From Acutalibacteraceae bacterium (GTDB taxonomy: Bacteria > Bacillota > Clostridia > Oscillospirales > Acutalibacteraceae): DNA of 64,000 nucleotides. Both the position numbers and the translations under genes were made by a program. Within the stretch, counting starts at the first letter, position 1; every line of letters starts with the position of its first letter. The stretch covers positions 39,027 through 103,026 of the forward strand of contig JAZSHL010000047.1 of NCBI GenBank assembly GCA_045533205.1, read 5' to 3'. This document shows, one piece after another, positions 1 to 9,716 of this stretch. Under the pieces are notes generated by a model that searched no databases, was not told the DNA's origin, and worked only from the letters and a program-made list of their open reading frames with translations.

Positions 1-540
1 TAAATCATTTATCTTTTCATGACATTTGTGATTATCTTGATACCGAATACCCTTCAAAACATGAATATCAATATTCCCATAATGCCAACACTGGCGAATA
101 GTTTCATAAGGGATATACTCATCATTAAAAACAACAAGATGACAGTGCAGACAACCTTCATTTCCTTCACGCTCTCCCCTTTCCTTCTGTCGTTCAAGAA
201 CATATAGATACTTGAGCTTGTAACCCTTACGTATCATAGCTTTACGAAAAGCAAGAAAGTTATATGAAAACGTTTCATAATCTAAAACAGTCTTTTCATA
301 GGTCAGAGTAAGAAACTTTGTATATTTGCCGATATTTGCCCATATAATCTGCCTGACGGTACGTTGAGCGCGAAGCAAATTGGCAGAACGTTTATCATTA
401 AGCTGCTCATGCCGTTCTATACTGTACCCCCTGCTATAACCGCACCGTATCGGATTAATATACTTGTAATGCTCTACCCTGTTGCCGGATATAAAAGCCT
501 TACTTTTAATATAGGTGTCTACTACACCTAAACCCCTAAC
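1..540 (-). CDS. Rolling-circle replication initiator (HUH endonuclease superfamily), N-terminal ~180 codons. The 3' end lies outside the window and there is no in-frame start codon.
   Basis: Own translation of the minus strand: ...YINPIRCGYSRGYSIERHEQLNDKRSANLLRAQRTVRQIIWANIGKYTKFLTLTYEKTVLDYETFSYNFLAFRKAMIRKGYKLKYLYVLERQKERGEREGNEGCLHCHLVVFNDEYIPYETIRQCWHYGNIDIHVLKGIRYQDNHKCHEKINDL. Motif I is FLTLTY and motif II is HCHLVVF. The frame is open to position 1, and the ORF track omits it because it is open-ended. Confidence 0.7.
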
Positions 541-624
541 ATAATATCACCCTCTTTAAGTTTTGCAACACAATTAGCATTTTGTGTTGTTTTGTCCAAG
601 TTGTGAGTCTATAGTCAAGTTTAA

Positions 625-660
625 TACGCGCGTACGCGCGTGCGCACGCGTGCGTGCGCG
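625..660. repeat. 36-nt perfect alternating pyrimidine-purine tract (TA CG CG CG TA CG CG CG TG CG CA CG CG TG CG TG CG CG) with nested palindromes. Candidate Z-DNA, hairpin or origin element.
   Basis: Read directly: 18 consecutive YR dinucleotides, 28 of 36 G+C. Perfect palindromes CGCGCGTACGCGCG (627-640) and CGCACGCGTGCG (643-654). Lies in the non-coding gap between the Zot-like gene and Rep. Confidence 0.9.
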
Positions 661-797
661 AGGAAACCTCAAAATAGTGCCATAAAAGCCACATCGAGCA
701 TGGAAAGCTATACTCACGATTAAGCAAATATAGCCGATTTTAACCCTATAACCGCCCCAGAGAAAGAAAGCTGCAATGAAGTATAGGGAAGGCAGAA

Positions 798-828
798 AGG
801 GCAAATAAGGAAGCACAGAGGGCAAATA
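798..828. repeat. Two direct copies of AGGGCAAATA spaced exactly 21 bp apart (iteron-like).
   Basis: AGGGCAAATA at 798-807 and 819-828. Both are preceded by CA-A-A/G (cagaAAGGGCAAATA and cacagAGGGCAAATA). Non-coding region next to the GC tract. Confidence 0.7.
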
Positions 829-867
829 CAGCAAACAGGACACAGACTGCAAAAATTTAAAATATGC

Positions 868-896
868 TTGACTTTTAATGCAATATGATATAAAAT
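868..896 (+). promoter_or_regulatory. Sigma-A-type promoter on the plus strand (TTGACT, 17 nt, TAAAAT) with no plus-strand ORF downstream.
   Basis: TTGACT at 868-873, 17-nt spacer, TAAAAT at 891-896. Confidence 0.4.
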
Positions 897-902
897 AAAA
901 GG

Positions 903-968
903 GAAGTGGAAACACTGACCTGAATAAGTGGTTGTGGCCGTGGAAAGTGGCAACCGCTTATTTTTTTT
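903..968 (+). ncRNA. Candidate ~65-nt small RNA, bounded by the promoter at 868-896 and the hairpin plus T8 run at 928-968.
   Basis: Promoter-like hexamers are followed about 30 nt later by the stem GTGGTTG/CAACCGC (928-934 and 951-957, one G-U pair), then TTATTTTTTTT. The unit converges on the stop codon of the Zot-like gene at 973. Confidence 0.3.
928..968 (+). terminator. Plus-strand intrinsic-terminator-like hairpin with a T8 run.
   Basis: 7-bp stem, 16-nt loop, followed by TTATTTTTTTT. On the minus strand the stem has a C-A mismatch and no T run follows. Confidence 0.4.
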
Positions 969-972
969 ATGC

Positions 973-1848
973 TTATTCTCTATGCCAGAATTCTTCATCT
1001 GTCATTACTTCATTATCGTCAAATTCGTCAAAATCCTCATAATAAGCATCTTCTGCTTCTATATCGTGTTCTTTCCTTATTTTGCCTAAAAAAACCTTAA
1101 TTTGGTCAATAACGTAAGAATTTTCAACGTAACCCTGTTTTTCTTGTAATTCTTCAAAATTTAAAATTTCATCCCACATAGGCATATCAATGATAGGTTT
1201 TTCATAAAATGTGTAGGTAGATATAAATTTGTTGTACCATTTCTTGCGCCAGAACAGGAAGTAACCGGAAGGAACTTCACAAATGTCATAAGATACTTTT
1301 TGCATGCCCTTTTTGAACATTCTTCCTTGTACTTCAGTATTCTTATCAGCAATCTTGGCAACTGTAGTTCGTGAACTTTCAATATGGGTAAAATGCCAGA
1401 AACCGGAAGTGAGATAGTATGTATAATCCGCAGCTCTTCTGATATTGAGGTCAAGGCAGTCATAAGCCTGAGTAGCGAGAAATACATGAGTATCATTTTT
1501 ACGAATGAAATTGAAGAATTCATCATCTGATGCAGTCCATTTAGCGTAACTACGTGCAGGCCATACAGTACGAGCTTCGTCAATAAGAACCACAGAATGA
1601 GAAAGATTAGCAGAATATAGCCAATCCTTATCGACATCAGACTTCTCTACACCGTTAATTGTTTTAGTTACTAACGGTATCTGCTTACAACCCTTGTAAG
1701 GATACTGACAATAGACTTCATAACCTTCATTGAGATAAGCATCAACAATAAAGGCGAACAATGTCGATTTACCAGCTCCCCTATCACCTGTAATTATGCC
1801 GCAGAAGCAATTTAAAACATGATTACGTAAACGTTTACCCATGACCAA
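973..1848 (-). CDS. Zot / pI-like phage assembly P-loop ATPase with no transmembrane segment.
   Basis: Walker A GDRGAGKST, Walker B VVLIDEA, and the Zot-like segment FFNFIRKNDTHVFLATQAYDCLDLNIRR. Acidic C-terminal tail. Start is either TTG at 1848 or ATG at 1842, after AAAGAAGG. Confidence 0.75.
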   Translation of the reverse strand: MVMGKRLRNHVLNCFCGIITGDRGAGKSTLFAFIVDAYLNEGYEVYCQYPYKGCKQIPLVTKTINGVEKSDVDKDWLYSANLSHSVVLIDEARTVWPARSYAKWTASDDEFFNFIRKNDTHVFLATQAYDCLDLNIRRAADYTYYLTSGFWHFTHIESSRTTVAKIADKNTEVQGRMFKKGMQKVSYDICEVPSGYFLFWRKKWYNKFISTYTFYEKPIIDMPMWDEILNFEELQEKQGYVENSYVIDQIKVFLGKIRKEHDIEAEDAYYEDFDEFDDNEVMTDEEFWHRE

Positions 1849-1981
1849 AAACCTTCTTTAACAAAATAATTGAGATAGATAAAGCCAAAAGACAACAAAC
1901 AGAATAAAGATAATAATCTAATGCAATCAATGAAGAAAGAATAGAAACGAATAAATCACATAACTTTGAAAAAATAACCAT
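1835..1981 (-). CDS. Hypothetical 48-aa hydrophobic protein overlapping the Zot-like start (below the ORF-track cutoff).
   Basis: Own translation: MVIFSKLCDLFVSILSSLIALDYYLYSVCCLLALSISIILLKKVFGHG. No clear SD, because the hairpin lies immediately upstream. Confidence 0.3.
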   Translation of the reverse strand: MVIFSKLCDLFVSILSSLIALDYYLYSVCCLLALSISIILLKKVFGHG

Positions 1982-1988
1982 AAAATTA

Positions 1989-2010
1989 AGGGGTAAGGAG
2001 ATTTACCCCT
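1989..2010 (-). terminator. Hairpin after the coat-like gene 2034..2255 (attenuator or terminator).
   Basis: Stem AGGGGTAA/TTACCCCT (8 bp), 6-nt loop. On the minus strand it is followed by TAATTTTAT. Confidence 0.4.
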
Positions 2011-2033
2011 AACCCCCTTCTGTAAAAATTATA

Positions 2034-2255
2034 TTATCTGCGTCTACGTCTGCGACCGCCTGCAGAACTTACGCCACGGATACCGAGCTTCTTAACAATA
2101 CCGATAGAAAGCATTACAAGACCGCCAAGGAGCGCGATGAGAACAGGAACGTAAAGCAGAGGGTTACCAGTGATAGTGGTAACGATTGAACCGAACATCG
2201 TAAAAAGAGTGTCAAGAACAATAGTCATAGAAGAAAAAACAGCTGTAGTGGTCAT
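2034..2255 (-). CDS. Coat-like small transmembrane protein with a hexa-arginine C-terminus.
   Basis: 73 aa. Hydrophobic core PLLYVPVLIALLGGLVMLSIGIV, then KKLGIRGVSSAGGRRRRRR. SD AAGGGGG upstream. Confidence 0.55.
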   Translation of the reverse strand: MTTTAVFSSMTIVLDTLFTMFGSIVTTITGNPLLYVPVLIALLGGLVMLSIGIVKKLGIRGVSSAGGRRRRRR

Positions 2256-2294
2256 AATTAACCCCCTTTCTTAAAATTTTAAATTAACTGCAAA

Positions 2295-2325
2295 GCATTG
2301 GCGCAGCTCACGCTGCGGCCCATGC
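2295..2325. other. GC-rich imperfect hairpin between the two coat-like genes.
   Basis: GCATTGGCGCAGC tcac GCTGCGGCCCATGC (13 bp with one mismatch and one bulge). A T-rich run follows on the plus strand (TTTTCTTATTTT), and only TTTG follows on the minus strand. Confidence 0.5.
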
Positions 2326-2330
2326 TTTTC

Positions 2331-2546
2331 TTATTTTCTGCCCTTAATACCAAACTTACGAATAAGTTTAATAGCAAGACCGACAGAACCTGCGACAATA
2401 GCAAGAATAACGGGCCAGAGAAGCAGGTTATTACTTGCAATGGTGTTAATGAGGTCCGTGAAGATACCCCAGAACCATGTAGCTGCAGAACCGATATCAG
2501 AAGCGAGACCGGAAAGATCAGCAAGAGCAACTGTACTACCTTCCAT
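2331..2546 (-). CDS. Major-coat-like small transmembrane protein.
   Basis: MEGSTVALADLSGLASDIGSAATWFWGIFTDLINTIASNNLLLWPVILAIVAGSVGLAIKLIRKFGIKGRK. It has an acidic or amphipathic N-terminus, one TM helix and a Lys/Arg-rich tail. SD AAGGAG lies 8 nt before the ATG at 2546. The ORF-track start at 2564 has no SD. Confidence 0.55.
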   Translation of the reverse strand: MEGSTVALADLSGLASDIGSAATWFWGIFTDLINTIASNNLLLWPVILAIVAGSVGLAIKLIRKFGIKGRK

Positions 2547-2573
2547 TGGCGATACTCCTTTCATAGAATTTTA

Positions 2574-2777
2574 TTATTCATCATCATATTCAGCATCGAC
2601 GTCAGCGCTAATACTTCGATCAGAAAAAGACGAGGAATTAACAATATTATGAATATCATAAAGATATAAATTTGACATATGTAACTGATCAGAAATATCA
2701 TGAAGAAGATCAGAAATTATTTGCAAATAAAAAAAGAAATCTTGAATTTTTTCTTTAATAAAAGACAAAATTATCAC
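2574..2777 (-). CDS. Hypothetical acidic 67-aa protein.
   Basis: ORF track. The GTG start abuts the stop of the upstream gene, and TTG at 2768 after AAGGTGA is an alternative. No TM segment. C-terminus DVDAEYDDE. Confidence 0.35.
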   Translation of the reverse strand: MIILSFIKEKIQDFFFYLQIISDLLHDISDQLHMSNLYLYDIHNIVNSSSFSDRSISADVDAEYDDE

Positions 2778-2778
2778 C

Positions 2779-3342
2779 TTAATCCAAATCTAATTTATCA
2801 TCCAACTGTTCAGAAGTATTATCATATGTTTCCGTGCTGGTATAAGACGTATTAGACAAATAAAACGAACCATCATCAGCCTGTTTATATTTCTTTGTAA
2901 CACGAGTCTTTTTAGAATTCCCCCAGTGTTTATTTTCAAAACCTTCTTGATAATAAGTAAATCCATTAACACGAATAGACATTCGATTAGGATTATTAGA
3001 AAAGAAAGTTTTTGCAATAGATAGACCTTGCTCATATCTTAAAGCTTCGTTATGTTCTTTTTCTCTCTTAAAGCTTTCACGTAATAAACGCTGTTCTTTT
3101 TTAAACTTTTTAAATCTGAAAATTTTATAAAATCTGATACCCTCAGAAGTAAGATCCTCAGGAGAATCAATTAAAACAGATACAAGAGATATGATAAAAA
3201 ACACTGAAGGCAATGTAACACTTATAAAAACAGCTAAAACAAGCAACGGCTGACTGTTTATATAAATAATCAGTCTACCAATTACTGTAAAAAAGTAATC
3301 ACTTATTGCACTAATATCAGAAAAAAGCGAGTCATAAGTCAT
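2779..3342 (-). CDS. Hypothetical membrane protein: N-terminal TM helices plus a charged C-terminal domain.
   Basis: 187 aa. ATGA overlap with the upstream ORF and SD AAGGGGG. Hydrophobic region at about residues 15-60, then a Lys/Arg/Glu-rich region. Confidence 0.55.
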   Translation of the reverse strand: MTYDSLFSDISAISDYFFTVIGRLIIYINSQPLLVLAVFISVTLPSVFFIISLVSVLIDSPEDLTSEGIRFYKIFRFKKFKKEQRLLRESFKREKEHNEALRYEQGLSIAKTFFSNNPNRMSIRVNGFTYYQEGFENKHWGNSKKTRVTKKYKQADDGSFYLSNTSYTSTETYDNTSEQLDDKLDLD

Positions 3343-3509
3343 AATTTACGCCCCCTTAAGATACTGACAATAATAAGGACAACAGAAACACCGAAAAGAA
3401 TCGAAAGAACAATCCAGACAGGCGAAAAACCAACAAATAAATTAAATAATTCATTAAGAAATTCACCTGCAAGGACTAATAGATTAGTAAAAAACTCAAG
3501 TGCATTCAT
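3339..3509 (-). CDS. Small transmembrane protein with a basic C-terminus (coat-like).
   Basis: MNALEFFTNLLVLAGEFLNELFNLFVGFSPVWIVLSILFGVSVVLIIVSILRGRKL. The ATG at 3509 follows the stop of the upstream gene at 3514. The track start, TTG at 3542, is the alternative. Confidence 0.45.
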   Translation of the reverse strand: MNALEFFTNLLVLAGEFLNELFNLFVGFSPVWIVLSILFGVSVVLIIVSILRGRKL

Positions 3510-3513
3510 ACCG

Positions 3514-3699
3514 TCAACCCCTGAACCAAGAAATAACGGCAAATACTACACCACCGATAAGAGGAATACCGACACAGGCAAGAAGAAACCAATTACCTTC
3601 AATCATGCTCCAAACAGTTTGAAAAATTGCAGAAAATGTAGTCATTAAAGAGCCTAACAATGTGCCCATACCTTCAGCAGTTTCAGCAGCTGTCATCAT
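3514..3699 (-). CDS. Small transmembrane protein (coat-like).
   Basis: 61 aa with SD AAGGGGGGTG. N-terminus MMTAAETAEGMGTLLG, then a hydrophobic helix. Confidence 0.5.
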   Translation of the reverse strand: MMTAAETAEGMGTLLGSLMTTFSAIFQTVWSMIEGNWFLLACVGIPLIGGVVFAVISWFRG

Positions 3700-3713
3700 A
3701 AATTACACCCCCC

Positions 3714-3857
3714 TTAACGAAAGAAATCAATAAATGAACAGACACATGTATAAATAACAAAGAGTCCGGCAAGAGCTAATATATAAACAAATATATATTC
3801 AAGAAAACCGTAGCCAACAAGAGGAACTCCTATAAGCTCACGTAAAATATCAATCAT
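3714..3857 (-). CDS. Hypothetical 47-aa transmembrane protein (below the ORF-track cutoff).
   Basis: Own translation: MIDILRELIGVPLVGYGFLEYIFVYILALAGLFVIYTCVCSFIDFFR. ATGA overlap with the stop of 3854..4417, and SD GAAGGGG. Confidence 0.45.
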   Translation of the reverse strand: MIDILRELIGVPLVGYGFLEYIFVYILALAGLFVIYTCVCSFIDFFR

Positions 3858-4417
3858 AAACGTCTACCCCTTCTGAACAAATTTACACATAAACTGAAGA
3901 ATGAACAAAAAGCAATAAGAGCTAACATAACATTCTGATACTTATCTGTTTCGAGAACAGTTGAATTATAATAATTGTAATTATCGGTTATAAATAACAT
4001 ATTACTGTTTGACAATGACATAACATCAGGATTCAAATACTCATAAGTGTTATACCCGGTATTGGAAGTCTGAACTTCGATCGGAGAAAATCGACTGCAT
4101 CTGCAGCTATATTGATTACCGTTTGAAGTAATGACAATCCCGTAGATAGTTGTATTTGAGAAGTTATAAATATCAACAGGCAAATCAGCAGCAGACAAAC
4201 TAAAACCAAAGATATTGTCTTTAAATTCAAGCGGAAAAATAACCGTACACCGCCCAACAGTGGAATCGAGAGCCTCAAACCATGCACCCCCTGAATAATT
4301 TACATAATCCGGTATATCACATGTAAACACAGTTTCTTCATCAGCTGCATAAACATTGATACATGAAAATATCAGAATTATAAAAACACAAATGAAAGAT
4401 AGTATTTTCTTTTTCAT
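3854..4417 (-). CDS. Secreted, C-terminally anchored protein (minor-coat or adsorption-protein-like).
   Basis: Signal peptide MKKKILSFICVFIILIFSCINVYA/ADEE. C-terminal helix MLALIAFCSFFSLCVNLF followed by RRGRRL. Confidence 0.6.
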   Translation of the reverse strand: MKKKILSFICVFIILIFSCINVYAADEETVFTCDIPDYVNYSGGAWFEALDSTVGRCTVIFPLEFKDNIFGFSLSAADLPVDIYNFSNTTIYGIVITSNGNQYSCRCSRFSPIEVQTSNTGYNTYEYLNPDVMSLSNSNMLFITDNYNYYNSTVLETDKYQNVMLALIAFCSFFSLCVNLFRRGRRL

Positions 4418-4424
4418 AAAATCA

Positions 4425-4562
4425 CTTCTTTCCTTTTAAAAACTTAAGAATAACAACAACGATTAAAGCAATGATGAACCATGCGAGAAAAGGAACACCA
4501 AAAACTTGGATATCAAACAGCATACGAAATGCTGATACAAAAATCTGAATAATTGATTCCAT
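4425..4562 (-). CDS. Hypothetical 45-aa transmembrane protein with a basic tail (below the ORF-track cutoff).
   Basis: Own translation: MESIIQIFVSAFRMLFDIQVFGVPFLAWFIIALIVVVILKFLKGKK. TAATG overlap with the upstream stop, and SD GGAAGGGAAGG. Confidence 0.45.
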
Positions 4563-4786
4563 TAATCTTGGCCTTCCCTTCCGAGTACTTTATATATAAC
4601 TGCAACTGCAACGAGAGCAACAGAACTGATTGAAAATGAAACAGGAAGCAAGAAAACAAGATCAAGCAAAAAACTAACACATTCGATAGCCATATCCACC
4701 AAAATAAGACACCATTCAGAAAGAGAATCGATAATATCAAAAATAGAAGTAAAAAAATCAGATATATACCAAAAAATAACAACCAT
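4562..4786 (-). CDS. Small two-helix membrane protein.
   Basis: 74 aa. TAATG overlap with the stop of 4786..5937, and SD AAAGGTGG. Confidence 0.5.
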   Translation of the reverse strand: MVVIFWYISDFFTSIFDIIDSLSEWCLILVDMAIECVSFLLDLVFLLPVSFSISSVALVAVAVIYKVLGREGQD

Positions 4787-5937
4787 TAGCGACCGACCAC
4801 CTTTCTAACAACAGCAAAAACAAGAAGAAAGATAAAACAGGCATTTAAAATAGGTACGGCATCAAAAAATGTATTAATTATAGATGTGCCTTGCTCAATA
4901 TAAACCGATACAGAATCAAGTGTATCCTCAAGCGTTAAAACGAAATCACCGGTACGTGAGGCATTCTCATTAATAAATAAATCAATATCAGTCAAAACAC
5001 CGCCGCTAAAATATTCTTCTCTTTCAGGCTTAGTTTCCTGAAAATACAACATGTAATTTATAAGCTTATCAAAGAAAGCACCAATCTGAGCAGGAATGTC
5101 TTTTATACTCTGCCAGATGCCTTTCTGTGTTTCCTGTTCCTGTTGATCTACTGTAGGCGGGACGAAAGTTTCACAGTAAATAGTTGTTGAAGCCGCATCA
5201 TTATAAAAGAATCGACCACTCTGAAAACCGACTTGATTATCTACAGTAAAATAACAATTTTCATTTGAAGATTGAAGAGGAAAGTTAACAGACGTTACAT
5301 TACCGACTCTGACACCGTTACCACCATAAAAGTAAAAATCATAAGTTGATGTCGGATAAGCAAATGTAGAAGTATAGGCCATAACCTTAGAAACACCTTC
5401 AGCACCATAAGAAGTCGGCTGAAGCTTTACCCAATCACTTGTAGCTTCATAAGTTTCAGCGTTAAAATAACAACGATAACAGGCAGAATTACTGTAAAAA
5501 TATTCAGATACACAAACTCTCATACGGTCATTTTTAAGATCATAACCAAGACCGCAATTAAAGCCGGCAATAACTACAACATCAGTTGCGCTTCTGACTC
5601 TGACAAGGACAAAAGGCATTTTATATGTCGCAGGATCAGTTGACTGCGCACCATCAAGTGACATATAAATAATTTCCTGTATGTATGAAGGAGCTTCAGA
5701 CCATGGCAGCTTCTTTGGATCAAAATTAGGATAATTCTTCTCAGGTGATAAAAGCGTTACAGGGCCCGACATAAGAGGATCAGAATAGCCGGAAGGTAAA
5801 GCATATGAAACACCGTCATATACATAACCGTATTCAAATAAATCATCAACAGAAAAAGCTGAAACTGAACCAAAAAAAGACAACGAGAGCATAACAGAAC
5901 AAACAATAAAAATAATTATTTTCTTTGCTGTTTTCAT
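4786..5937 (-). CDS. pIII-like candidate adsorption or minor coat protein: signal peptide plus C-terminal membrane anchor.
   Basis: 383 aa. Signal peptide MKTAKKIIIFIVCSVMLSLSFFGSVSA/FS. C-terminal helix ILNACFIFLLVFAVV followed by RKVVGR. It is the largest ORF of the module. Confidence 0.6.
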   Translation of the reverse strand: MKTAKKIIIFIVCSVMLSLSFFGSVSAFSVDDLFEYGYVYDGVSYALPSGYSDPLMSGPVTLLSPEKNYPNFDPKKLPWSEAPSYIQEIIYMSLDGAQSTDPATYKMPFVLVRVRSATDVVVIAGFNCGLGYDLKNDRMRVCVSEYFYSNSACYRCYFNAETYEATSDWVKLQPTSYGAEGVSKVMAYTSTFAYPTSTYDFYFYGGNGVRVGNVTSVNFPLQSSNENCYFTVDNQVGFQSGRFFYNDAASTTIYCETFVPPTVDQQEQETQKGIWQSIKDIPAQIGAFFDKLINYMLYFQETKPEREEYFSGGVLTDIDLFINENASRTGDFVLTLEDTLDSVSVYIEQGTSIINTFFDAVPILNACFIFLLVFAVVRKVVGR

Positions 5938-5981
5938 GTTATGCCCCCATTGTCAAAAAAGGATGATAGGATAAAGAGAAA

Positions 5982-6263
5982 TTATGTTTTTACAGGTTTA
6001 AATCCAACAATACGAGGTTTTTCATCTTTCTTAACACCAGTAAAATGAAATATCCACTCGTAATAAGCGTTACACTGAATAGTGTTAGGAATTTTAGCAT
6101 TGCCATCACGGAAAAACTTTGATCCTGCTAACTTACCTGTTGTAGGATAAGGATCTGTAGGATCAGGATCAGTAAGAAAATAAATCATCTTACCATGGAC
6201 AGTCTTGCTTTCATTGTCTCTATCAGGAAAAGACATACTTGTTACACCTACGATTTCAAACAT
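5982..6263 (-). CDS. Hypothetical soluble 93-aa protein. Size and position fit a ssDNA-binding protein, but no motif was recognised.
   Basis: ORF track, SD GAAAGAAGG, no TM segment. Confidence 0.5.
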   Translation of the reverse strand: MFEIVGVTSMSFPDRDNESKTVHGKMIYFLTDPDPTDPYPTTGKLAGSKFFRDGNAKIPNTIQCNAYYEWIFHFTGVKKDEKPRIVGFKPVKT

Positions 6264-6287
6264 AAAAAAAACCTTCTTTCTAAAAAC

Positions 6288-6299
6288 TTTGTAGGATTT
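6288..6299. repeat. Exact 12-nt copy (TTTGTAGGATTT) of the right half of operator IR2.
   Basis: 6288-6299 is identical to 6615-6626. It lies between ORFs 6309..6548 and 5982..6263. Confidence 0.6.
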
Positions 6300-6308
6300 T
6301 TATTTATA

Positions 6309-6548
6309 TCAACCGTCGTCACGGTTAATAATCGAATCAACATAATCTGTAAGCTCTTTAGCTGATTTATCAACACGCTTCTTCAATACATAACGCTTTA
6401 TTGTTCGTGATATATCATCAACGACATTAATTAAGGAAGCAATAATAACACCACCAACGAAACCCGCAAAAACAAAAAAAGCCGCAACAAATGCAGGTAT
6501 TGAATTAAAATAAGCATTAACTGCATCTAAATCAGGTACATAATCCAT
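6309..6548 (-). CDS. Hypothetical single-TM 79-aa protein, the first gene of the minus-strand phage operon.
   Basis: ORF track, SD GAGGTGA. Hydrophobic helix IPAFVAAFFVFAGFVGGVIIASLI. Confidence 0.5.
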   Translation of the reverse strand: MDYVPDLDAVNAYFNSIPAFVAAFFVFAGFVGGVIIASLINVVDDISRTIKRYVLKKRVDKSAKELTDYVDSIINRDDG

Positions 6549-6577
6549 TTTTTTTTCACCTCAAATATTTTTTCAGA

Positions 6578-6652
6578 ACACTACAAAATGTAGTGTCTAT
6601 ATATTATCCTACTTTTTGTAGGATTTCAACCCCTTAAACTACATTTTGTAGT
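6578..6652. promoter_or_regulatory. Operator array of three palindromes sharing a CTAC...GTAG core.
   Basis: IR1 ACACTACA-AAA-TGTAGTGT (6578-6596). IR2 TCCTAC-TTTTT-GTAGGA (6607-6623). IR3 ACTACA-TTT-TGTAGT (6638-6652). All lie in the divergent gap between the XRE repressor and the phage operon. Confidence 0.6.
6601..6629 (-). promoter_or_regulatory. Promoter of the minus-strand phage operon: TTGAAA, 17 nt, TAATAT.
   Basis: Minus-strand TTGAAA at 6629-6624 and TAATAT at 6606-6601. The 17-nt spacer is exactly IR2. Confidence 0.5.
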
Positions 6653-6680
6653 ATTGTACAAATATAAGGGGGTGCAAACT

Positions 6681-6905
6681 ATGGATTATAGACAAAAATT
6701 TAAAAACTTAAGAATTGATAATGATTTAAAACAAGAAGACATAGCAAAAATTTGCAATGTATCAGATGCAACAGTTGGACACTGGGAAACGAAAAGAAGA
6801 GACATGAAAATTGATAGCATTATAAAACTATGTATTTTTTATAATGTGTCACCAGAATACATTTTTGGATTTACAAAAGAACAAAAACCATTACCTAAAA
6901 AATAA
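6681..6905 (+). CDS. XRE-family helix-turn-helix repressor (cI/Cro-like).
   Basis: MDYRQKFKNLRIDNDLKQEDIAKICNVSDATVGHWETKRRDMKIDSIIKLCIFYNVSPEYIFG. SD AAGGGGGTG lies 6 nt upstream of the ATG at 6681. The track start, TTG at 6654, is less likely. Confidence 0.8.
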   Translation: MDYRQKFKNLRIDNDLKQEDIAKICNVSDATVGHWETKRRDMKIDSIIKLCIFYNVSPEYIFGFTKEQKPLPKK

Positions 6906-6968
6906 TTTTGTTACTTTTTGTGATTCTGAAGATACAACTGTAAGAACATAAAAGAGGAGATAAGAAAA

Positions 6969-7277
6969 ATGAAAAATCAACCAAAAAACAAATATGATGA
7001 AATGATTGACGAGCTAATACAATGGGAAAAGAAAGAAATCAGAAAAATTAAATTAACAGGCCTAATCTTTATAACAATCGGACTTGTATTTCTTATCTTG
7101 TTATTCACACATGACGAAGGTAACAAATTAATATATTTATTGGCAACACTCGGATTTATAGGAATTGGAACAAAGTTCGAAGAGGGAAAAAGAAAAGAAA
7201 TACGAAAATATGTAAACAGACAAATCAGAACAATTGAAGATGAACAAATGAGAGACTACTTAAGAAAACAAAAATAA
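6969..7277 (+). CDS. Hypothetical two-TM membrane protein downstream of the repressor.
   Basis: 102 aa, SD AGAGGAGA. Helices LTGLIFITIGLVFLILLF and LIYLLATLGFIGIG. Confidence 0.55.
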   Translation: MKNQPKNKYDEMIDELIQWEKKEIRKIKLTGLIFITIGLVFLILLFTHDEGNKLIYLLATLGFIGIGTKFEEGKRKEIRKYVNRQIRTIEDEQMRDYLRKQK

Positions 7278-7299
7278 GAGAGCCGTCACAGGCTCTCTT
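7276..7299. terminator. Bidirectional hairpin between the convergent genes 6969..7277 and 7286..7510.
   Basis: Stem AAGAGAGCC/GGCTCTCTT (9 bp), 6-nt loop, T-rich runs on both strands. Confidence 0.45.
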
Positions 7300-7510
7300 T
7301 GTTGTTATAACTTTTGTTAATGCAATAACCTAAATCACATAACACACACCTTAATAATGCAGTAACAACATATTTAGGCGGTGTACGTGATCCCGAAGAC
7401 CAAGAACACAAAGTACGGTAAGGAACATCATAATGAACGGAAAATTCAAACAAAGAATAACGAGATAAAATTATAACATCACGAATTGTAGTTTCAGTTT
7501 TATTATTCAT
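7286..7510 (-). CDS. Small helix-turn-helix protein (XRE-like).
   Basis: MNNKTETTIRDVIILSRYSLFEFSVHYDVPYRTLCSWSSGSRTPPKYVVTALL... SD AGGAGGG precedes the ATG at 7510. The track start, GTG at 7540, lies inside the repeats. Confidence 0.55.
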   Translation of the reverse strand: MNNKTETTIRDVIILSRYSLFEFSVHYDVPYRTLCSWSSGSRTPPKYVVTALLRCVLCDLGYCINKSYNNKESL

Positions 7511-7529
7511 AAACCCTCCTGCGCTTGAA

Positions 7530-7561
7530 ACAATGTGCACCTAAAGGAACACATTGTGCAC
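7530..7561. repeat. Two 11-nt direct repeats, ACAATGTGCAC and ACATTGTGCAC, spaced 21 bp apart. Each contains the palindrome GTGCAC.
   Basis: 7530-7540 and 7551-7561, identical at 10 of 11 positions, immediately upstream of the small HTH gene. Confidence 0.6.
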
Positions 7562-7619
7562 TACGTTAAATTTCGTAAACAATAAATAAAAAAATTTAAA
7601 ATGTAAAATAAAGCAGTTA

Positions 7620-7647
7620 TTTTGTATAGTTGTTTATTATGTAAATT
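7620..7647 (+). other. Weak dif-like site in which only the XerD-arm half matches.
   Basis: TTATGTAAATT (7637-7647) matches the B. subtilis dif XerD arm TTATGTAAACT at 10 of 11 positions. The left arm does not match (2 of 11). Confidence 0.15.
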
Positions 7648-7684
7648 GCATATTATCGCCTGATATATTTTTTTGAAAAGTTTT

Positions 7685-7712
7685 TTGCTTGCAATTAATT
7701 ATACAATATAAT
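7685..7712 (+). promoter_or_regulatory. Candidate promoter for the ABC-F gene: TTGCTT, 16 nt, TATAAT.
   Basis: Hexamers at 7685-7690 and 7707-7712. Confidence 0.35.
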
Positions 7713-7793
7713 TCCTCACCCTGACTTATATTAACCTTGTAAAATTTTATTTATTGTGATATCATATATGAAAAATGTTTAAGGGTTGATCAG

Positions 7794-9716
7794 ATGCAGA
7801 TAAAAGTTCAGAACGGAGTTGTTGATCTTTCCGGTGAACCTGTGTTGAAAAAAGTTAATATAGAGATAAACACTGAAAGTAAAATTGGTATTGTAGGAAG
7901 AAACGGCTGCGGCAAAACAACATTGTTAAGACTTCTTTCCGGTGAGCTCAAAATTTCTAAGGATACACCTACGGAGCTTAACAGTCAATTTATTGTTTCG
8001 GGTAAGCCGACAATCGGTGCATTGAATCAGATGGCTTTTAAAGATAACAGCGTTTTGCTGATTGATGAAATTAGAAGTGCATATTCAGATTTACTTTCTA
8101 TGCAGAAAAGGCTGTCTGATTTGCAGCAGCAAATGGAAAGCTCTTCTGCTCAGGAAGATATTATTTCTGAGTACTCTACCCTCTTGGATCGATTCACAAA
8201 TTGTGGCGGATTCTATTTCGAAAAGGAATACGAGGCGGCGATTAAGCGGTTTGGCTTCACTAATGAAGAAAAATATAAGCCCTTGTCTGACTTTTCCGGT
8301 GGACAAAGAACAAAAATCGCATTTCTGAAGCTTCTTTTGTCAAAGCCTGACTTGCTTTTGCTTGATGAGCCGACCAATCATCTTGACCTTGACGCTGTCA
8401 CCTGGCTTGAGGAATATTTATCTACGTATAAAAAAGCAGTTGTAATAGTATCTCATGACCGAATGTTTCTTGATAAAACAGTAACTACAATATACGAGAT
8501 TGAGCACGGTAAAACATATAAATATGACGGTAATTATTCAAGCTTTGCTAAGCAGAAGGAGCTTGTCCGTGAACAGCAAGCAAAGGATTATGAGGCCCAG
8601 CAGAAGGAAATTGCCAAGCTTAACGAACTGATTGAGCGATTCAGATACAAAGCTACCAAGGCTGCTATGGTACAGTCTAAAATAAAGTATCTTGAAAGAA
8701 TGGAGTTAATTGAGCCGCCTGACAAATTTGATTTAAAGCAGTTTCATGCTGATTTCGAGCCTGATATGAGGTCTGTAAACGATGTTTTAACCGTCAGGGA
8801 TCTTGAGATAGGATATACTCACGTTATCTCAAAATTATCATTTAATGTGCGCAGAGGTCAGCATGTCGGTATTATTGGCGGCAACGGAAAAGGCAAATCG
8901 ACACTTCTCAAAACAATTGTCGGCGCTATCCCGAAAATTTCAGGCTCGTATATTATCGGCGGTAATGTCAGAGTCGGATATTTTGATCAGCAAATGGCAC
9001 AGTATTCAAGCAATCTGACACTTCTTGATGATTTCATGAATGAATTTCCATCTATTACCACTTTCGAAGCCAGAAGTGCGCTCGGAGCCTTTTTGTTCAG
9101 TGGTGACGATGTTTTTAAAACTGTTGATATGCTTTCCGGCGGTGAAAAGGTCAGACTTGCCTTGTGTAAGCTGTTTAAGCACAAGCCGAACTTCCTGATT
9201 CTTGACGAGCCGACGAATCATATGGATATTGTCGGCAAGGAAACTCTTGAAAATATTCTTACAAATTACAGCGGCACCTTGCTTTTTGTTTCACATGACA
9301 GATATTTTGTCAATAAGGTCGCACATCATGTTTTATCCTTTGAGAATAATGATGTCAATTGGTATGAATACGGTTATGCTGATTATGTTGAAAAACAAAG
9401 CAAGCTCTCCTCCCCTTCTCCGGCTGATTCAACAGAGTCAATCAATGTTGCCGCTGAAAAGACGCCCAAGAAAAGCTATACTACCCCTTTGAAAGAAAAA
9501 TCAAGAAGGGAAAGAGCTCTTAAAAAGAGTGAAGAGCTTATTGAGTCACTTGAAGCGGAGCTGACACAGCTGCAAGATGAAATTCAAAAGGAAGAAAACA
9601 TAAGCGACTATATTAAACTTGAACAGCTGCAAAAAGCTATTGCAGACACAAGCACAAGGCTTGAGCTGGCAATGGAGGAATGGGAAATTTTAGCAGTTGA
9701 AAATGAATCTGAATAA
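7794..9716 (+). CDS. ABC-F family ATPase: two ABC domains, no TM segment, C-terminal coiled coil.
   Basis: Walker A GRNGCGKTT and GGNGKGKST. Signatures LSGGQRTK and LSGGEKVR. Both followed by LLLDEPTNHLD / LILDEPTNHMD. Confidence 0.85.
   Translation: MQIKVQNGVVDLSGEPVLKKVNIEINTESKIGIVGRNGCGKTTLLRLLSGELKISKDTPTELNSQFIVSGKPTIGALNQMAFKDNSVLLIDEIRSAYSDLLSMQKRLSDLQQQMESSSAQEDIISEYSTLLDRFTNCGGFYFEKEYEAAIKRFGFTNEEKYKPLSDFSGGQRTKIAFLKLLLSKPDLLLLDEPTNHLDLDAVTWLEEYLSTYKKAVVIVSHDRMFLDKTVTTIYEIEHGKTYKYDGNYSSFAKQKELVREQQAKDYEAQQKEIAKLNELIERFRYKATKAAMVQSKIKYLERMELIEPPDKFDLKQFHADFEPDMRSVNDVLTVRDLEIGYTHVISKLSFNVRRGQHVGIIGGNGKGKSTLLKTIVGAIPKISGSYIIGGNVRVGYFDQQMAQYSSNLTLLDDFMNEFPSITTFEARSALGAFLFSGDDVFKTVDMLSGGEKVRLALCKLFKHKPNFLILDEPTNHMDIVGKETLENILTNYSGTLLFVSHDRYFVNKVAHHVLSFENNDVNWYEYGYADYVEKQSKLSSPSPADSTESINVAAEKTPKKSYTTPLKEKSRRERALKKSEELIESLEAELTQLQDEIQKEENISDYIKLEQLQKAIADTSTRLELAMEEWEILAVENESE

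What the first reader, a model, noticed from the sequence alone, without database searches (positions are those of the whole stretch)
625..660. 36-nt perfect alternating pyrimidine-purine GC tract with nested palindromes between the Zot-like gene and Rep
Seen: positions 625-660 read TA CG CG CG TA CG CG CG TG CG CA CG CG TG CG TG CG CG. That is 18 consecutive Py-Pu steps with 28 of 36 G+C, sitting in DNA that is otherwise about 30% GC. The tract contains perfect palindromes at 627-640 (CGCGCGTACGCGCG) and 643-654 (CGCACGCGTGCG). The second extends to 637-660 if two G-T pairs are allowed. Known: alternating CG/TG runs are the classic Z-DNA-forming sequence under negative supercoiling. The intergenic region of filamentous phages carries hairpins that act as packaging signal and complementary-strand origin, and HUH Rep nick sites commonly lie in or beside hairpins. 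Inferred: this is a structural cis element of the phage (origin, packaging signal or supercoil-sensitive switch) rather than random sequence. I do not recall a tract of this type being described for filamentous phage intergenic regions.
Basis: partly seen in the sequence, partly recalled or inferred. Interest (0 to 1): 0.7.

Follow-up and report, generated by a model that had tools for sequence, protein, structure and literature searches.

The report
CG hairpin tract flanking phage origin
A 36-base run of alternating C and G in a filamentous prophage of a gut Firmicute is a real, conserved element that sits directly beside a phiX174-like replication origin, most likely as the hairpin-forming arm of that origin, and Z-DNA formation is possible but unproven.

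Summary
Window 625-660 (624-660 with the A at 624) is a 36-37 nt perfect pyrimidine-purine alternation at 78% G+C, in flanks of 31-39% G+C. The next longest alternating run in the 64 kb is 15 nt, and 3000 shuffles never exceeded 25.

It lies on the gene strand (window minus) of an inovirus-like prophage, between the Zot-like ATPase gene and the HUH Rep gene. It ends at a 35-nt core, TATTAAACTTGACTATAGACTCACAACTTGGACAA, which shares AACTTGA and ACTATAGAC with the phiX174 viral-strand origin.

Thirteen distinct tract variants from independent assemblies occupy the same slot. Eleven alternate perfectly. Ten of these, taken together, differ by at least 28 mutational events with no transversion. 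Two variants break alternation but keep a GC hairpin. More distant Rep relatives carry ordinary, non-alternating GC hairpins at the same position.

The "nested palindromes" are a by-product of composition.

Best reading: the tract is the GC hairpin arm on the 5' side of the plus-strand origin. Rivals are a transcription terminator, a complementary-strand origin, a packaging signal, or a Z-DNA supercoil switch. A textbook model puts the B-Z transition near sigma -0.035.

This is a new variant of a known kind and of moderate interest.

The parts
625..660 (-). Alternating CG/TG/CA tract. On the gene strand it reads CGCGCACGCACGCGTGCGCACGCGCGTACGCGCG-TA. As single-stranded DNA it is predicted to fold into two tandem GC hairpins.
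   Evidence: statistics. (fold). (13 distinct variants at the same position in relatives). (at least 28 events among 10 variants, no transversion).
661..665 (-). Conserved 5' flank, (T/C)CCCT in relatives and TTCCT in the window. It marks the left edge of the conserved origin module.
   Evidence: per-column pairwise identity is 0.2-0.3 from -40 to -6 and 0.7-1.0 over the last 5 nt; homology to most relatives begins at about 650-663.
592..626 (-). Conserved origin core TATTAAACTTGACTATAGACTCACAACTTGGACAA. The predicted Rep nick is CTTG|A, between window 616 and 615 on the minus strand. A second AACTTGGAC repeat lies 20 nt downstream.
   Evidence: Identical in W, L003, L004 and L005; L077, L078, L081 and L122 match over the stretch shown. 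[A/T]CTTGACTAT is kept upstream of Rep down to about 35% Rep identity. It shares AACTTGA and ACTATAGAC with the phiX174 origin, whose rep_origin is annotated after CAACTTG.
566..589 (-). Inverted repeat CAACACAA-N8-TTGTGTTG between the origin core and the Rep start. The loop varies in relatives. It may be a Rep-binding or operator site.
   Evidence: I22, 8/8 complementary. (folds in both strands). (GCAACAC..GTGTTGC kept in L004, L077, L078, L122 with different loops).
528..542 (-). Four-codon upstream ORF (ATG TTA GGG GTT TAG) behind a strong Shine-Dalgarno sequence. It overlaps a promoter-like extended -10 (TGATATTAT).
   Evidence: The same ATG/TTG is in frame with Rep in L007, L008 and L077, and out of frame in W, L003, L004, L005 and L081.
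1..510 (-). 5' part of the HUH Rep gene (PF23343 REP_ORF2-G2P; motifs FLTLTY and HCHLVVF). It runs off the window. The aligned start codon is ATT in the window.
973..1848 (-). Zot-like morphogenesis ATPase (P-loop GDRGAGKST). It is the last gene before the intergenic region.
868..968 (+). Small transcript unit convergent with Zot: promoter-like TTGACT-17-TAAAAT, a hairpin at 923-962, and T8. It belongs to the mosaic intergenic region, not to the tract.
   Evidence: Conserved in L001 and L004.

Best explanation
The tract is the 5' structural arm of the phage's plus-strand (viral-strand) replication origin.

Shown: it is a conserved, very G+C-rich, self-complementary block. It ends 4-6 nt before a conserved core that resembles the phiX174 gpA origin. 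It is inherited together with that core.

Inferred mechanism: Rep, an HUH superfamily-I initiator, nicks the gene strand at CTTG|A, 11 nt 3' of the tract. When the viral strand is displaced at the end of a round, or sits in the released circle, the tract snaps into GC hairpins directly 5' of the regenerated nick site. The hairpin keeps that site free of single-strand-binding protein and presents it to Rep for the cleavage-joining step. This resembles the inverted repeat 5' of nic in conjugative oriT sites.

An alternating CG repeat is a register-independent way to build such a hairpin. Any slippage in 2-nt steps, or any transition, still leaves a foldable tract. That would explain both the length variation and the absence of transversions.

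In the supercoiled replicative form the same tract may also flip to Z-DNA, but this is not needed for the explanation.
For: Position and context:
- The tract lies between the Zot-like gene and Rep in an inovirus-like gene array.
- The adjacent core is 100% identical in W, L003, L004 and L005, and in L077, L078, L081 and L122 over the stretch shown. [A/T]CTTGACTAT persists upstream of PF23343 Reps down to 35-47% identity.
- phiX174 reads CAACTTG|ATATTAATAACACTATAGACCAC, with rep_origin annotated at the A after CTTG. The window core shares AACTTGA and the 9-mer ACTATAGAC in the same order. Only 0.37% of 34-nt windows in this sequence share a 9-mer with that origin.
- CTTG is cited as the superfamily-I Rep recognition sequence in the phiLf filamentous phage origin (bioRxiv 10.1101/2023.12.30.573655).

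Conservation:
- There are 13 tract variants at the same slot, and 11 alternate perfectly.
- L003 and L005 have an identical tract and core. Their Rep proteins are about 80% identical and their Zot proteins 68% identical.
- L078 and L122 have an identical tract and core with Zot only 62% identical.
- Homology to most relatives starts at the tract's 5' edge.

Hairpin as the common denominator:
- L006 and L121 break alternation but keep an 8-bp GC stem, and their single difference falls in the loop.
- L131 and L130 carry non-alternating GC hairpins ending 3-4 nt and 9 nt before the same motif. L131 folds at -32.2 kcal/mol (z -5.5) and L130 has z -2.5.
- The gene-strand fold is at least as stable as the complement in 13/13 variants, by up to 3.1 kcal/mol.

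Analogue: a hairpin 5' of nic shifts the F TraI reaction toward joining (PMC3074121).
Against: - No nick site, Rep binding or replication has been measured for any member of this clade.
- Within the perfectly alternating variants the hairpins are no more stable than shuffles of their own units. So there is no covariation evidence for one particular hairpin.
- No loop has drifted out of alternation in 11 variants. A simple hairpin model does not predict that.
- The intergenic region as a whole is not significantly more structured than shuffles (z -1.6 and -1.8), and the tract region alone reaches only z -2.1.
- Relatives L020 and L023 have only weak AT-rich hairpins there (z -0.6 and -1.6). L019 has a 24-nt spacer. 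A GC hairpin at a fixed distance is therefore not obligatory for this Rep family.
- phiX174 itself needs no 5' hairpin (own knowledge).
Confidence: 0.45

Rival explanations
1. Intrinsic transcription terminator or insulator. As RNA, the GC hairpin plus the T-rich TATT(A/T)AAC tail would stop transcripts of the long structural operon before they enter the origin and the Rep control region. The Ff packaging-signal hairpin also acts as a terminator after gene IV (own knowledge).
For: - The simple terminator scan flags the tract plus tail on the gene strand in L006, L019 and L125.
- In the window there is no other gene-strand terminator between the Zot stop and Rep. The hairpin at 923-962 has its T-run on the other strand.
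- Gene-strand folds are never weaker than the complement, and the G-U pairs involved would count for more in RNA.
- All genes upstream run in the same direction.
Against: - The window's own tract is not flagged. Its tail TATTAAAC has 3 T in 8, and most variants have 3-4 T in 8.
- The tail is part of the conserved origin core, not a free U-tract.
- The phage's evident terminator after the coat gene is an ordinary non-alternating stem with TAATTTTAT (about 1985-2010).
- Terminators do not need perfect purine-pyrimidine alternation, and usually show compensated transversions and free loops. Here there are none in at least 28 events.
Confidence: 0.2
2. Complementary-strand (minus) origin. The hairpin in the infecting or released viral single strand would mark the priming site for host primase or RNA polymerase. 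Ff hairpins B and C lie just 5' of the plus origin, and the phage G4 origin uses hairpins beside a primase start triplet (own knowledge).
For: - The tract lies immediately 5' of the plus-strand nick motif, where Ff and many rolling-circle plasmids place their single-strand origins (own knowledge).
- It forms a stable hairpin on the viral strand.
- TTA and CTA triplets lie just 3' of the hairpin in TATTAAACTTGACTATAG. These are the preferred start triplets of Firmicute primases as I recall them.
Against: - There is no ssoA hallmark. CS-6 (TAGCGT/A) is absent from 541-972 on either strand.
- There is no promoter-like -35/-10 within the stem.
- The intergenic fold is not significantly structured, whereas known single-strand origins are 150-300 nt structured regions.
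- The tract is co-inherited with the Rep/nick core rather than as an exchangeable cassette.
- A better candidate for priming exists elsewhere: the promoter-plus-terminator unit at 868-968, which is read from the viral strand.
Confidence: 0.1
3. Packaging signal. The short GC hairpin would protrude from the ssDNA-binding-protein complex and be recognised by the assembly machinery. The 20-26 nt GC-rich hairpin next to the origin of Xanthomonas integrative filamentous phages works this way.
For: - In phiLf-UK the packaging signal is a 26-nt GC-rich dyad hairpin (SL4) directly beside the origin stem-loops SL2 and SL3. Deleting it cuts transducing particles about 100-fold (bioRxiv 10.1101/2023.12.30.573655).
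- The tract has a similar size, lies in the intergenic region, and folds on the viral strand.
Against: - Identical tracts occur with Zot proteins only 62-68% identical. So there is no co-variation with the morphogenesis module.
- The tract stays with the Rep/origin block across mosaic boundaries.
- The Xanthomonas consensus GGX(A/-)CCG(C/T)G is absent, since the tract contains no GG.
- A second hairpin directly after Zot (923-962), with compensatory stem changes in relatives, occupies the classical Ff packaging-signal position.
- L124 keeps the structural module with a different Rep and shows no tract in the 86% of its contig that could be read.
Confidence: 0.1
4. Z-DNA supercoil switch. In the supercoiled replicative form the tract would flip to left-handed DNA. 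The B-Z junction at CGCG|TATTAA would help melt the nick site, or the flip would absorb about 4-7 supercoils. Either way, Rep nicking would be tied to the cell's superhelical state.
For: - Alternation is perfect in 11 variants of 16-34 nt. Ten of them (L019 left out) are linked by at least 28 substitution or 2-nt-indel events with zero transversions and zero odd indels. In the flanks of the same sequence pairs, transversions outnumber transitions: 146 v 71, 668 v 538, 111 v 57.
- Palindromy is not above chance for the composition. Selection therefore looks like it acts on alternation or composition.
- A two-state model gives sigma_c of -0.034 to -0.037 for every variant in a 7.5 kb circle. Cruciforms of the 12-24 bp palindromes need -0.06 to -0.12.
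Against: - L006 and L121 interrupt the alternation (GAT, GAC) and keep the hairpin.
- L130 and L131 have non-alternating GC hairpins in the same slot.
- The strand asymmetry of fold stability is not expected for a duplex property.
- Z formation removes superhelical energy that origin melting needs.
- The energy parameters were recalled from memory, and unconstrained supercoiling in vivo is near or below the threshold (own knowledge).
- Transitions preserve alternation by definition. A G-T-tolerant hairpin under purifying selection gives the same pattern.
- No paper in the searched library links Z-DNA to a rolling-circle origin.
Confidence: 0.1
5. Functionless CG microsatellite that arose by slippage and hitch-hikes next to the origin.
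For: Lengths vary in 2-nt steps, and internal units look duplicated, for example GTGCGTGC.
Against: - A 78% G+C tract persists in 34-36% G+C genomes across lineages whose Rep genes differ at 21-36% of nucleotides.
- L003 and L005 keep 34/34 tract bases identical while the adjacent non-coding DNA is about 72-85% identical.
- The tract concentrates 6 of the prophage part's 8 CGCG sites.
- Distant relatives have a different GC hairpin at the same place.
Confidence: 0.05

Closest known systems
phiX174 gpA viral-strand origin (30 bp, CAACTTG|ATATTAATAACACTATAGACCAC) and the related CTTGATA nick sites of pC194/pUB110-type plasmids
   Same: There is a CTTG|A motif on the coding (viral) strand upstream of an HUH Rep gene. 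The 9-mer ACTATAGAC and the 7-mer AACTTGA are shared in the same order, and an AT-rich TATTAA element lies nearby.
   Different: Here the AT-rich element is 5' of CTTG, not between CTTG and ACTATAGAC. The Rep belongs to Pfam PF23343, not Phage_GPA or Rep_1. phiX174 has no alternating CG tract or hairpin 5' of the origin; the sequence there is GTGCTCCCCC.
Inverted repeat 5' of nic in conjugative oriT sites (F TraI, R388 TrwC)
   Same: A hairpin lies on the cleaved strand about 8-11 nt 5' of the site cut by an HUH enzyme. In F it favours the joining or termination reaction, and for R388 it is reported to position the ssDNA (PMC3074121). Here the hairpin ends 11 nt before the predicted nick.
   Different: Relaxases recognise specific bases of the repeat, whereas this tract varies in sequence and length. 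The present element is a phage replication origin, not a transfer origin. No biochemistry exists for it.
Ff (f1/M13) intergenic region: packaging-signal hairpin A, minus-origin hairpins B and C, plus origin
   Same: It lies in the intergenic region between the last morphogenesis gene and the Rep gene, and a hairpin-forming sequence sits immediately 5' of the plus-strand nick (Ff layout from own knowledge).
   Different: Ff hairpins are long, imperfect and not alternating CG. There is no sequence similarity, the Rep nick motif differs, and the roles are not mapped here.
[quoted passage not shown]
   Same: It is a short (20-26 nt) GC-rich dyad hairpin adjacent to an origin that uses a CTTG recognition sequence.
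   Different: [quoted passage not shown] The Xanthomonas signal lies 3' of the origin, inside the Rep gene. Here the tract is 5' of the origin and does not co-vary with structural genes.
Z-DNA-forming (CG)n / (CA·TG)n tracts studied in supercoiled plasmids
   Same: It is a perfect purine-pyrimidine alternation dominated by CG, and long enough (16-36 bp) for a predicted B-Z transition near sigma -0.035.
   Different: Those are mostly engineered inserts or chance genomic tracts. A conserved tract built into a bacteriophage rolling-circle origin was not found in the searched literature. Z formation here is only modelled.
GC-rich hairpin about 10-12 nt before the 3' cleavage site of Helitrons and IS91-family rolling-circle transposons (own knowledge)
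   Same: It is a GC hairpin a fixed short distance 5' of the site where an HUH enzyme terminates a rolling-circle round.
   Different: Those are transposons with Y2 transposases. The resemblance is recalled from memory and was not tested here.

Membership tests
Superfamily-I HUH Rep plus-strand origin (phiX174 / pC194 type) | CTTG|A recognition and nick motif on the strand that encodes Rep | tested here: met
   AAACTTGACTATAG lies at window 622-609 on the minus strand. phiX174 has CAACTTG|A with rep_origin annotated at that A. The motif is kept upstream of Rep in all relatives.
Superfamily-I HUH Rep plus-strand origin (phiX174 / pC194 type) | Adjacent Rep protein with motif 1, the HUH motif and a catalytic Tyr motif | tested here: met
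   FLTLTY and HCHLVVF are in the window's partial Rep, which scores 45.6 bits on PF23343. The Tyr motif YVSKYITK is seen only in full-length relatives, because the window cuts the gene.
Superfamily-I HUH Rep plus-strand origin (phiX174 / pC194 type) | Rep actually nicks at this site and replication starts there | not testable with these tools
   This needs in vitro nicking or in vivo origin assays.
Z-DNA-forming sequence | Uninterrupted purine-pyrimidine alternation rich in CG, at least about 12 bp | tested here: met
   The run is 37 nt with 12 CpG.
Z-DNA-forming sequence | B-Z transition at attainable negative superhelicity | tested here: inconclusive
   The two-state model gives sigma_c of about -0.034 in a 7.5 kb circle. 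The parameters were recalled from memory, the replicative-form size is assumed, and in vivo superhelicity is unknown.
Z-DNA-forming sequence | Alternation conserved wherever the element is conserved | tested here: inconclusive
   It is perfect in 11 variants, and 10 of them are linked by at least 28 events with no transversion. It is broken in L006 and L121 and absent from the L130 and L131 hairpins at the same slot.
Intrinsic (rho-independent) terminator | GC-rich stem-loop followed directly by a U-rich tract (at least 5 T in 8) | tested here: not met
   The window tract is not flagged; its tail is TATTAAAC. The criterion is met in relatives L006, L019 and L125, so it is not excluded for the clade.
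Filamentous-phage packaging signal | Stable hairpin on the packaged (gene) strand in a non-coding region | tested here: met
   The tract alone folds at -15.4 kcal/mol, and the 81-nt region 600-680 at -18.3 kcal/mol, on the gene strand.
Filamentous-phage packaging signal | Specific match to, or co-variation with, the assembly proteins or the known consensus | tested here: not met
   Identical tracts occur with Zot 62-68% identical. The Xanthomonas consensus is absent.
Filamentous-phage packaging signal | Confers packaging on a heterologous replicon | not testable with these tools
   This needs transducing-particle assays.
ssoA-type single-strand origin | Conserved CS-6 (TAGCGT/A) and a long structured region | tested here: not met
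   There is no TAGCG[TA] in 541-972 on either strand. The intergenic fold has z of -1.6 and -1.8.
Inovirus (Tubulavirales-like) prophage | Zot/pI-like ATPase, small hydrophobic coat-like proteins, HUH Rep, all on one strand, 7-8 kb | tested here: met
   Relatives occur as 7-8 kb contigs and as prophages with a tyrosine integrase.

The most novel reading that the evidence does not exclude
The alternating CG tract is selected as a Z-DNA element built into a rolling-circle origin. At native superhelicity it would flip to the left-handed form. The B-Z junction would fall on the TATTAA next to the CTTG|A nick site and gate Rep access. Phage replication in these gut Firmicute inoviruses would then be tied to the host's supercoiling and energy state. 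The zero-transversion record across ten of the perfectly alternating variants, and the lack of any palindrome signal beyond composition, are compatible with this. The non-alternating hairpins in sister lineages argue against it as the ancestral function, but they do not exclude it for this clade.
Probability: 0.12. Interest if true: 0.75.

Novelty: new variant of a known kind. Interest (0 to 1): 0.45.

Why it matters
Origins of replication are unmapped for the many inovirus-like prophages of Gram-positive gut bacteria. This work gives a concrete prediction for one clade of Acutalibacteraceae/Eubacteriales-associated inoviruses:
- a phiX174-like core with a CTTG|A nick;
- a GC hairpin arm on its 5' side;
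- an inverted repeat on its 3' side.

The prediction can be used to build replicons or phagemids for these hard-to-manipulate hosts.

The tract is also a natural test case for separating hairpin from Z-DNA function. Nature has already supplied three forms at the same position: perfectly alternating versions, interrupted CG versions, and ordinary GC hairpins. If the Z-DNA reading held, I know of no other conserved Z-forming element in a bacteriophage rolling-circle origin.

Tried and rejected
- **Close relatives in IMG/VR.** The single-protein scan found none and the Zot alignment scan found only two distant loci. A DNA pattern scan for the core, AACTTGACTATAN{1,2}CTCA, returned 39 hits, all chance or coding matches.
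- **Annotated databases.** BLAST of the tract plus core against annotated plasmids and phages gave nothing relevant. The only annotated phage with a similar Zot, bajarodino virus 43, has a different Rep and no tract.
- **Rfam.** A scan of 400-1100 gave only sub-threshold chance hits.
- **Specific conserved hairpin or cruciform.** Rejected for the alternating variants, because stability and palindrome length equal those of unit shuffles.
- **Cruciform in the replicative form.** The model says it needs sigma of -0.06 to -0.12, so it is less likely than Z-DNA or simple B-DNA.
- **Conserved TTGACT as the -35 of a Rep promoter.** No conserved -10 lies at 16-18 nt.
- **Programmed frameshift from the 4-codon uORF into Rep.** The G-run is not conserved in L003 and L004, so I dropped this.
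- **attP or a prophage junction.** The tract is internal. The integrase and host junctions lie elsewhere.
- **AT-rich alternating runs in L057 and L062.** These are operator-like sequences of a different module, not the same element.
- **Unexplained.** The first shuffle run printed a maximum run of 32 that the larger rerun did not reproduce.
Full report
**1. Observation**

The + strand at 625-660 reads TACGCGCGTACGCGCGTGCGCACGCGTGCGTGCGCG, with 28 of 36 bases G+C. Counting A624, the purine-pyrimidine alternation runs for 37 nt. The next longest alternating run in the 64 kb is 15 nt.

In 3000 shuffles the longest run averaged 16.3 and never passed 25. The expected number of runs of 37 nt or more is 9e-7.

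G+C is 0.78 in the tract, against 0.31 and 0.39 in the flanks and 0.34 over the first 8 kb. The tract holds 6 of the 8 CGCG sites in window 1-7600.

**2. Context**

Window 1 to about 7600 is an inovirus-like prophage with almost all genes on the minus strand; two small ORFs lie on the plus strand, one of them an HTH regulator at 6654-6905. The genes on the minus strand are:
- a 93-aa protein;
- a 383-aa protein;
- several small hydrophobic proteins;
- two coat-like proteins of 77 and 73 aa;
- a Zot-like P-loop ATPase at 973-1848 (Pfam Zot above its cut-off; PHROG "Zot-like toxin");
- a 432-nt intergenic region;
- an HUH Rep that runs off the window start (PF23343 REP_ORF2-G2P; motifs FLTLTY and HCHLVVF).

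A host ABC-F gene follows at 7794.

Zot homologues are numerous in gut Firmicute MAGs and metagenomes. Relatives occur as 7-8 kb contigs and as prophages. Some of these carry a tyrosine integrase after Rep. On the gene strand the tract lies about 115 nt upstream of the Rep start.

**3. What lies beside it**

Read on the gene strand, the tract is followed at once by TATTAAACTTGACTATAGACTCACAACTTGGACAA. This 35-nt core is identical in W, L003, L004 and L005. L077, L078, L081 and L122 match it over the stretch shown. The shorter motif [A/T]CTTGACTAT stands upstream of every related Rep examined, down to 35-47% protein identity.

The phiX174 record reads CAACTTGATATTAATAACACTATAGACCAC, with its viral-strand origin annotated at the A after CAACTTG. 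The core here shares AACTTGA and the 9-mer ACTATAGAC in the same order. Only 0.37% of 34-nt windows in this sequence share a 9-mer with that origin.

A preprint on Xanthomonas filamentous phages likewise cites CTTG as the recognition sequence of superfamily-I Rep proteins in the phiLf origin.

I therefore read the core as the plus-strand origin. The predicted nick is CTTG|A, between window 616 and 615 on the minus strand. This is an inference from similarity and not a mapped site.

**4. Conservation of the tract**

The same slot holds a CG tract in 16 further loci from independent assemblies. Together with the window these give 13 distinct variants. It is preceded by (T/C)CCCT and followed by (T)ATT(A/T)AACTTGAC.

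- Eleven variants, 16-34 nt long, alternate perfectly.
- Two variants (L006 and L121, Rep about 40% identical) read CGCGCGATCGCGCGC[G/A]ACGCGCGCGAC. This breaks alternation but keeps an 8-bp GC stem, and their one difference falls in the loop.
- More distant phages (L020, L023, L050) keep the CTTGACTAT motif without any CG tract.

The tract is therefore no assembly artefact, and it is clade-specific.

**5. Selection**

A minimum spanning tree over ten alternating variants needs at least 28 events, counting substitutions and 2-nt indels. None is a transversion or an odd-length indel.

Along the same sequence pairs, transversions outnumber transitions in the flanks:

| Region | Transversions | Transitions |
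|---|---|---|
| Next 100 nt downstream | 146 | 71 |
| Rep gene, first ~490 nt | 668 | 538 |
| 60 nt upstream | 111 | 57 |

(All.)

L003 and L005 have identical tract and core, although their Rep proteins are about 80% identical and their Zot proteins 68% identical. L078 and L122 share tract and core with Zot only 62% identical.

Column identity upstream of the tract is at random level until the last 5 nt. BLAST homology of the window's intergenic region to most relatives begins at about 650-663.

The intergenic region is thus mosaic, and the tract is the 5' edge of the origin/Rep block.

**6. Hairpin, cruciform or Z-DNA?**

*Palindromes are a by-product.* For the alternating variants, hairpin stability and longest palindrome are no better than shuffles of their own YR units. 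For the window, p = 0.49 and 0.65.

*Duplex energetics.* A two-state model with textbook parameters recalled from memory puts the B-Z transition at sigma -0.034 to -0.037 for every variant in a 7.5 kb circle. Cruciform extrusion of the 12-24 bp palindromes needs -0.06 to -0.12. In duplex DNA, Z is the easier alternative form.

*Three results favour a strand-specific hairpin as the conserved property.*
- L006 and L121 lose alternation but keep the stem.
- Elements with 45-47% identical PF23343 Reps (L130, L131) carry ordinary, non-alternating GC hairpins. L131's (-32.2 kcal/mol, z -5.5) ends 3-4 nt before AATCTTGACTATTCCTCA. L130's (z -2.5) ends 9 nt before the same motif.
- The gene-strand fold is at least as stable as the complement in 13 of 13 variants, by up to 3.1 kcal/mol. 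The variants are related, so this is suggestive only.

*Two results cut against a simple hairpin.* No loop has left alternation in 11 variants. The whole intergenic region is not significantly structured (z -1.6 and -1.8).

**7. Mechanism proposed**

The tract is the hairpin arm 5' of the nick site of a phiX174-like origin. In the displaced or released viral strand it folds next to the regenerated CTTG|A site and presents that site to Rep for cleavage and joining.

The closest studied analogue is the inverted repeat 5' of nic in oriT. In F it shifts TraI toward joining.

An alternating CG repeat gives a hairpin that survives slippage and transitions. That fits both the length changes in 2-nt steps and the missing transversions.

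All of this section is inference. Confidence is 0.45.

**8. Rivals**

- **Terminator (0.2).** The simple scan flags the tract plus tail in L006, L019 and L125 but not in the window. The tail belongs to the conserved core. The phage's evident terminator after the coat gene is an ordinary stem.
- **Minus-strand origin (0.1).** The position fits. However, there is no CS-6 motif and no long structured region.
- **Packaging signal (0.1).** A short GC hairpin beside the origin is the packaging signal in phiLf-UK. Here the tract does not co-vary with the morphogenesis genes, and another hairpin sits in the Ff-like position at 923-962.
- **Z-DNA switch (0.1).** See section 6.
- **Neutral microsatellite (0.05).** Persistence in AT-rich genomes argues against it.

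These roles are not mutually exclusive.

**9. Comparison and novelty**

GC-rich hairpins beside HUH nick sites are well known. A conserved, perfectly alternating CG tract abutting a phiX174-like origin in inoviruses of Gram-positive gut bacteria was not found in the searched literature or in annotated phage and plasmid records.

I class it as a new variant of a known kind, with interest 0.45. The most novel reading still open is a Z-DNA gate on the origin, at probability about 0.12.

Noticed in passing
window 508-549 (minus strand): The codon aligned with the ATG that starts Rep in L003 and L004 is ATT in the window (510-508). No in-frame ATG, GTG or TTG lies between the upstream stop (549-547) and a TTG about 47 codons in. 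A strong Shine-Dalgarno sequence plus ATG at 542-540 opens a 4-codon uORF ending in TAG (530-528). The same start is in frame with Rep in L007, L008 and L077, and out of frame in W, L003, L004, L005 and L081. The window's Rep may be poorly translated or the prophage may be defective.
   Followed up: partly
window 868-968 (+ strand): Promoter-like TTGACT-17-TAAAAT (10/12 matches), then a hairpin at 923-962 and T8. This defines a transcript unit of about 70 nt convergent with Zot and read from the viral strand. L004 keeps TTGACA-17-TAGAAT and the same hairpin, and L001 is 96% identical. In L003 and L081 the same slot holds a CopG/RepB-RCR_reg-like gene instead. It could be a regulatory RNA or the primer for complementary-strand synthesis.
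   Followed up: partly
window 792-853: Three direct repeats spaced 21 and 27 nt apart (GCAGAAAGGGCAAATA, GCACAGAGGGCAAATA, CACAGACTGCAAA). They are conserved in L003 and L005. The two 98%-Zot contigs L001 and L002 both end inside them. They look like iterons, and their binding partner is unknown.
   Followed up: no
window 541-972 compared with L001, L003, L004, L077, L078, L081, L122: The intergenic region is mosaic. A Zot-proximal block (972 to about 867) is shared with L001, L004 and L122. A middle block is shared only with L003, L005 and L081. The origin block runs from about 652-663 downward and is shared with all. The recombination boundary coincides with the 5' edge of the CG tract.
   Followed up: yes
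L124 (logan SRR19415688 contig, 7337 nt): This locus has the same structural gene module (Zot 68% identical), but Rep is replaced by a pMV158-type Rep_OBD/RepB_C protein. No CG tract appears in the 6.3 kb that could be read. This is a replication-module swap in this phage group.
   Followed up: partly
L130, L131, L132 (IMG/VR contigs of about 5 kb): These are small elements with PF23343 Reps 45-47% identical to the clade. They have the motif AATCTTGACTATTCCTCATAA and a strong non-alternating GC hairpin 3-9 nt before it. The repeated sequence GTCACACAGAGG / GTCAGTCAGAGG follows it.
   Followed up: partly
window about 1985-2010 (minus strand): A canonical intrinsic terminator (AGGGGTAA-atctcc-TTACCCCT followed by TAATTTTAT) lies between the coat-like gene and the Zot-like gene. 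This mirrors the terminator after gene VIII in Ff phages.
   Followed up: no
window 661-668 (minus) and phiX174 4290-4299: The bases before the tract (CTCCCT in relatives, TTTCCT in the window) resemble the CTCCCCC that precedes CAACTTG in phiX174. The tract plus TATTA looks like an insertion into a phiX-like sequence. This is possibly coincidence, since relatives without the tract lack CTCCC.
   Followed up: no
window 7600-9716 and L003 7-1926: The window prophage and its 83%-Zot relative L003 lie next to the same host ABC-F ATPase gene. L079, L080 and L121 are integrated beside a SpoIIM/YajC/TGT gene cluster and have a tyrosine integrase. The window's integrase end is outside the window.
   Followed up: no
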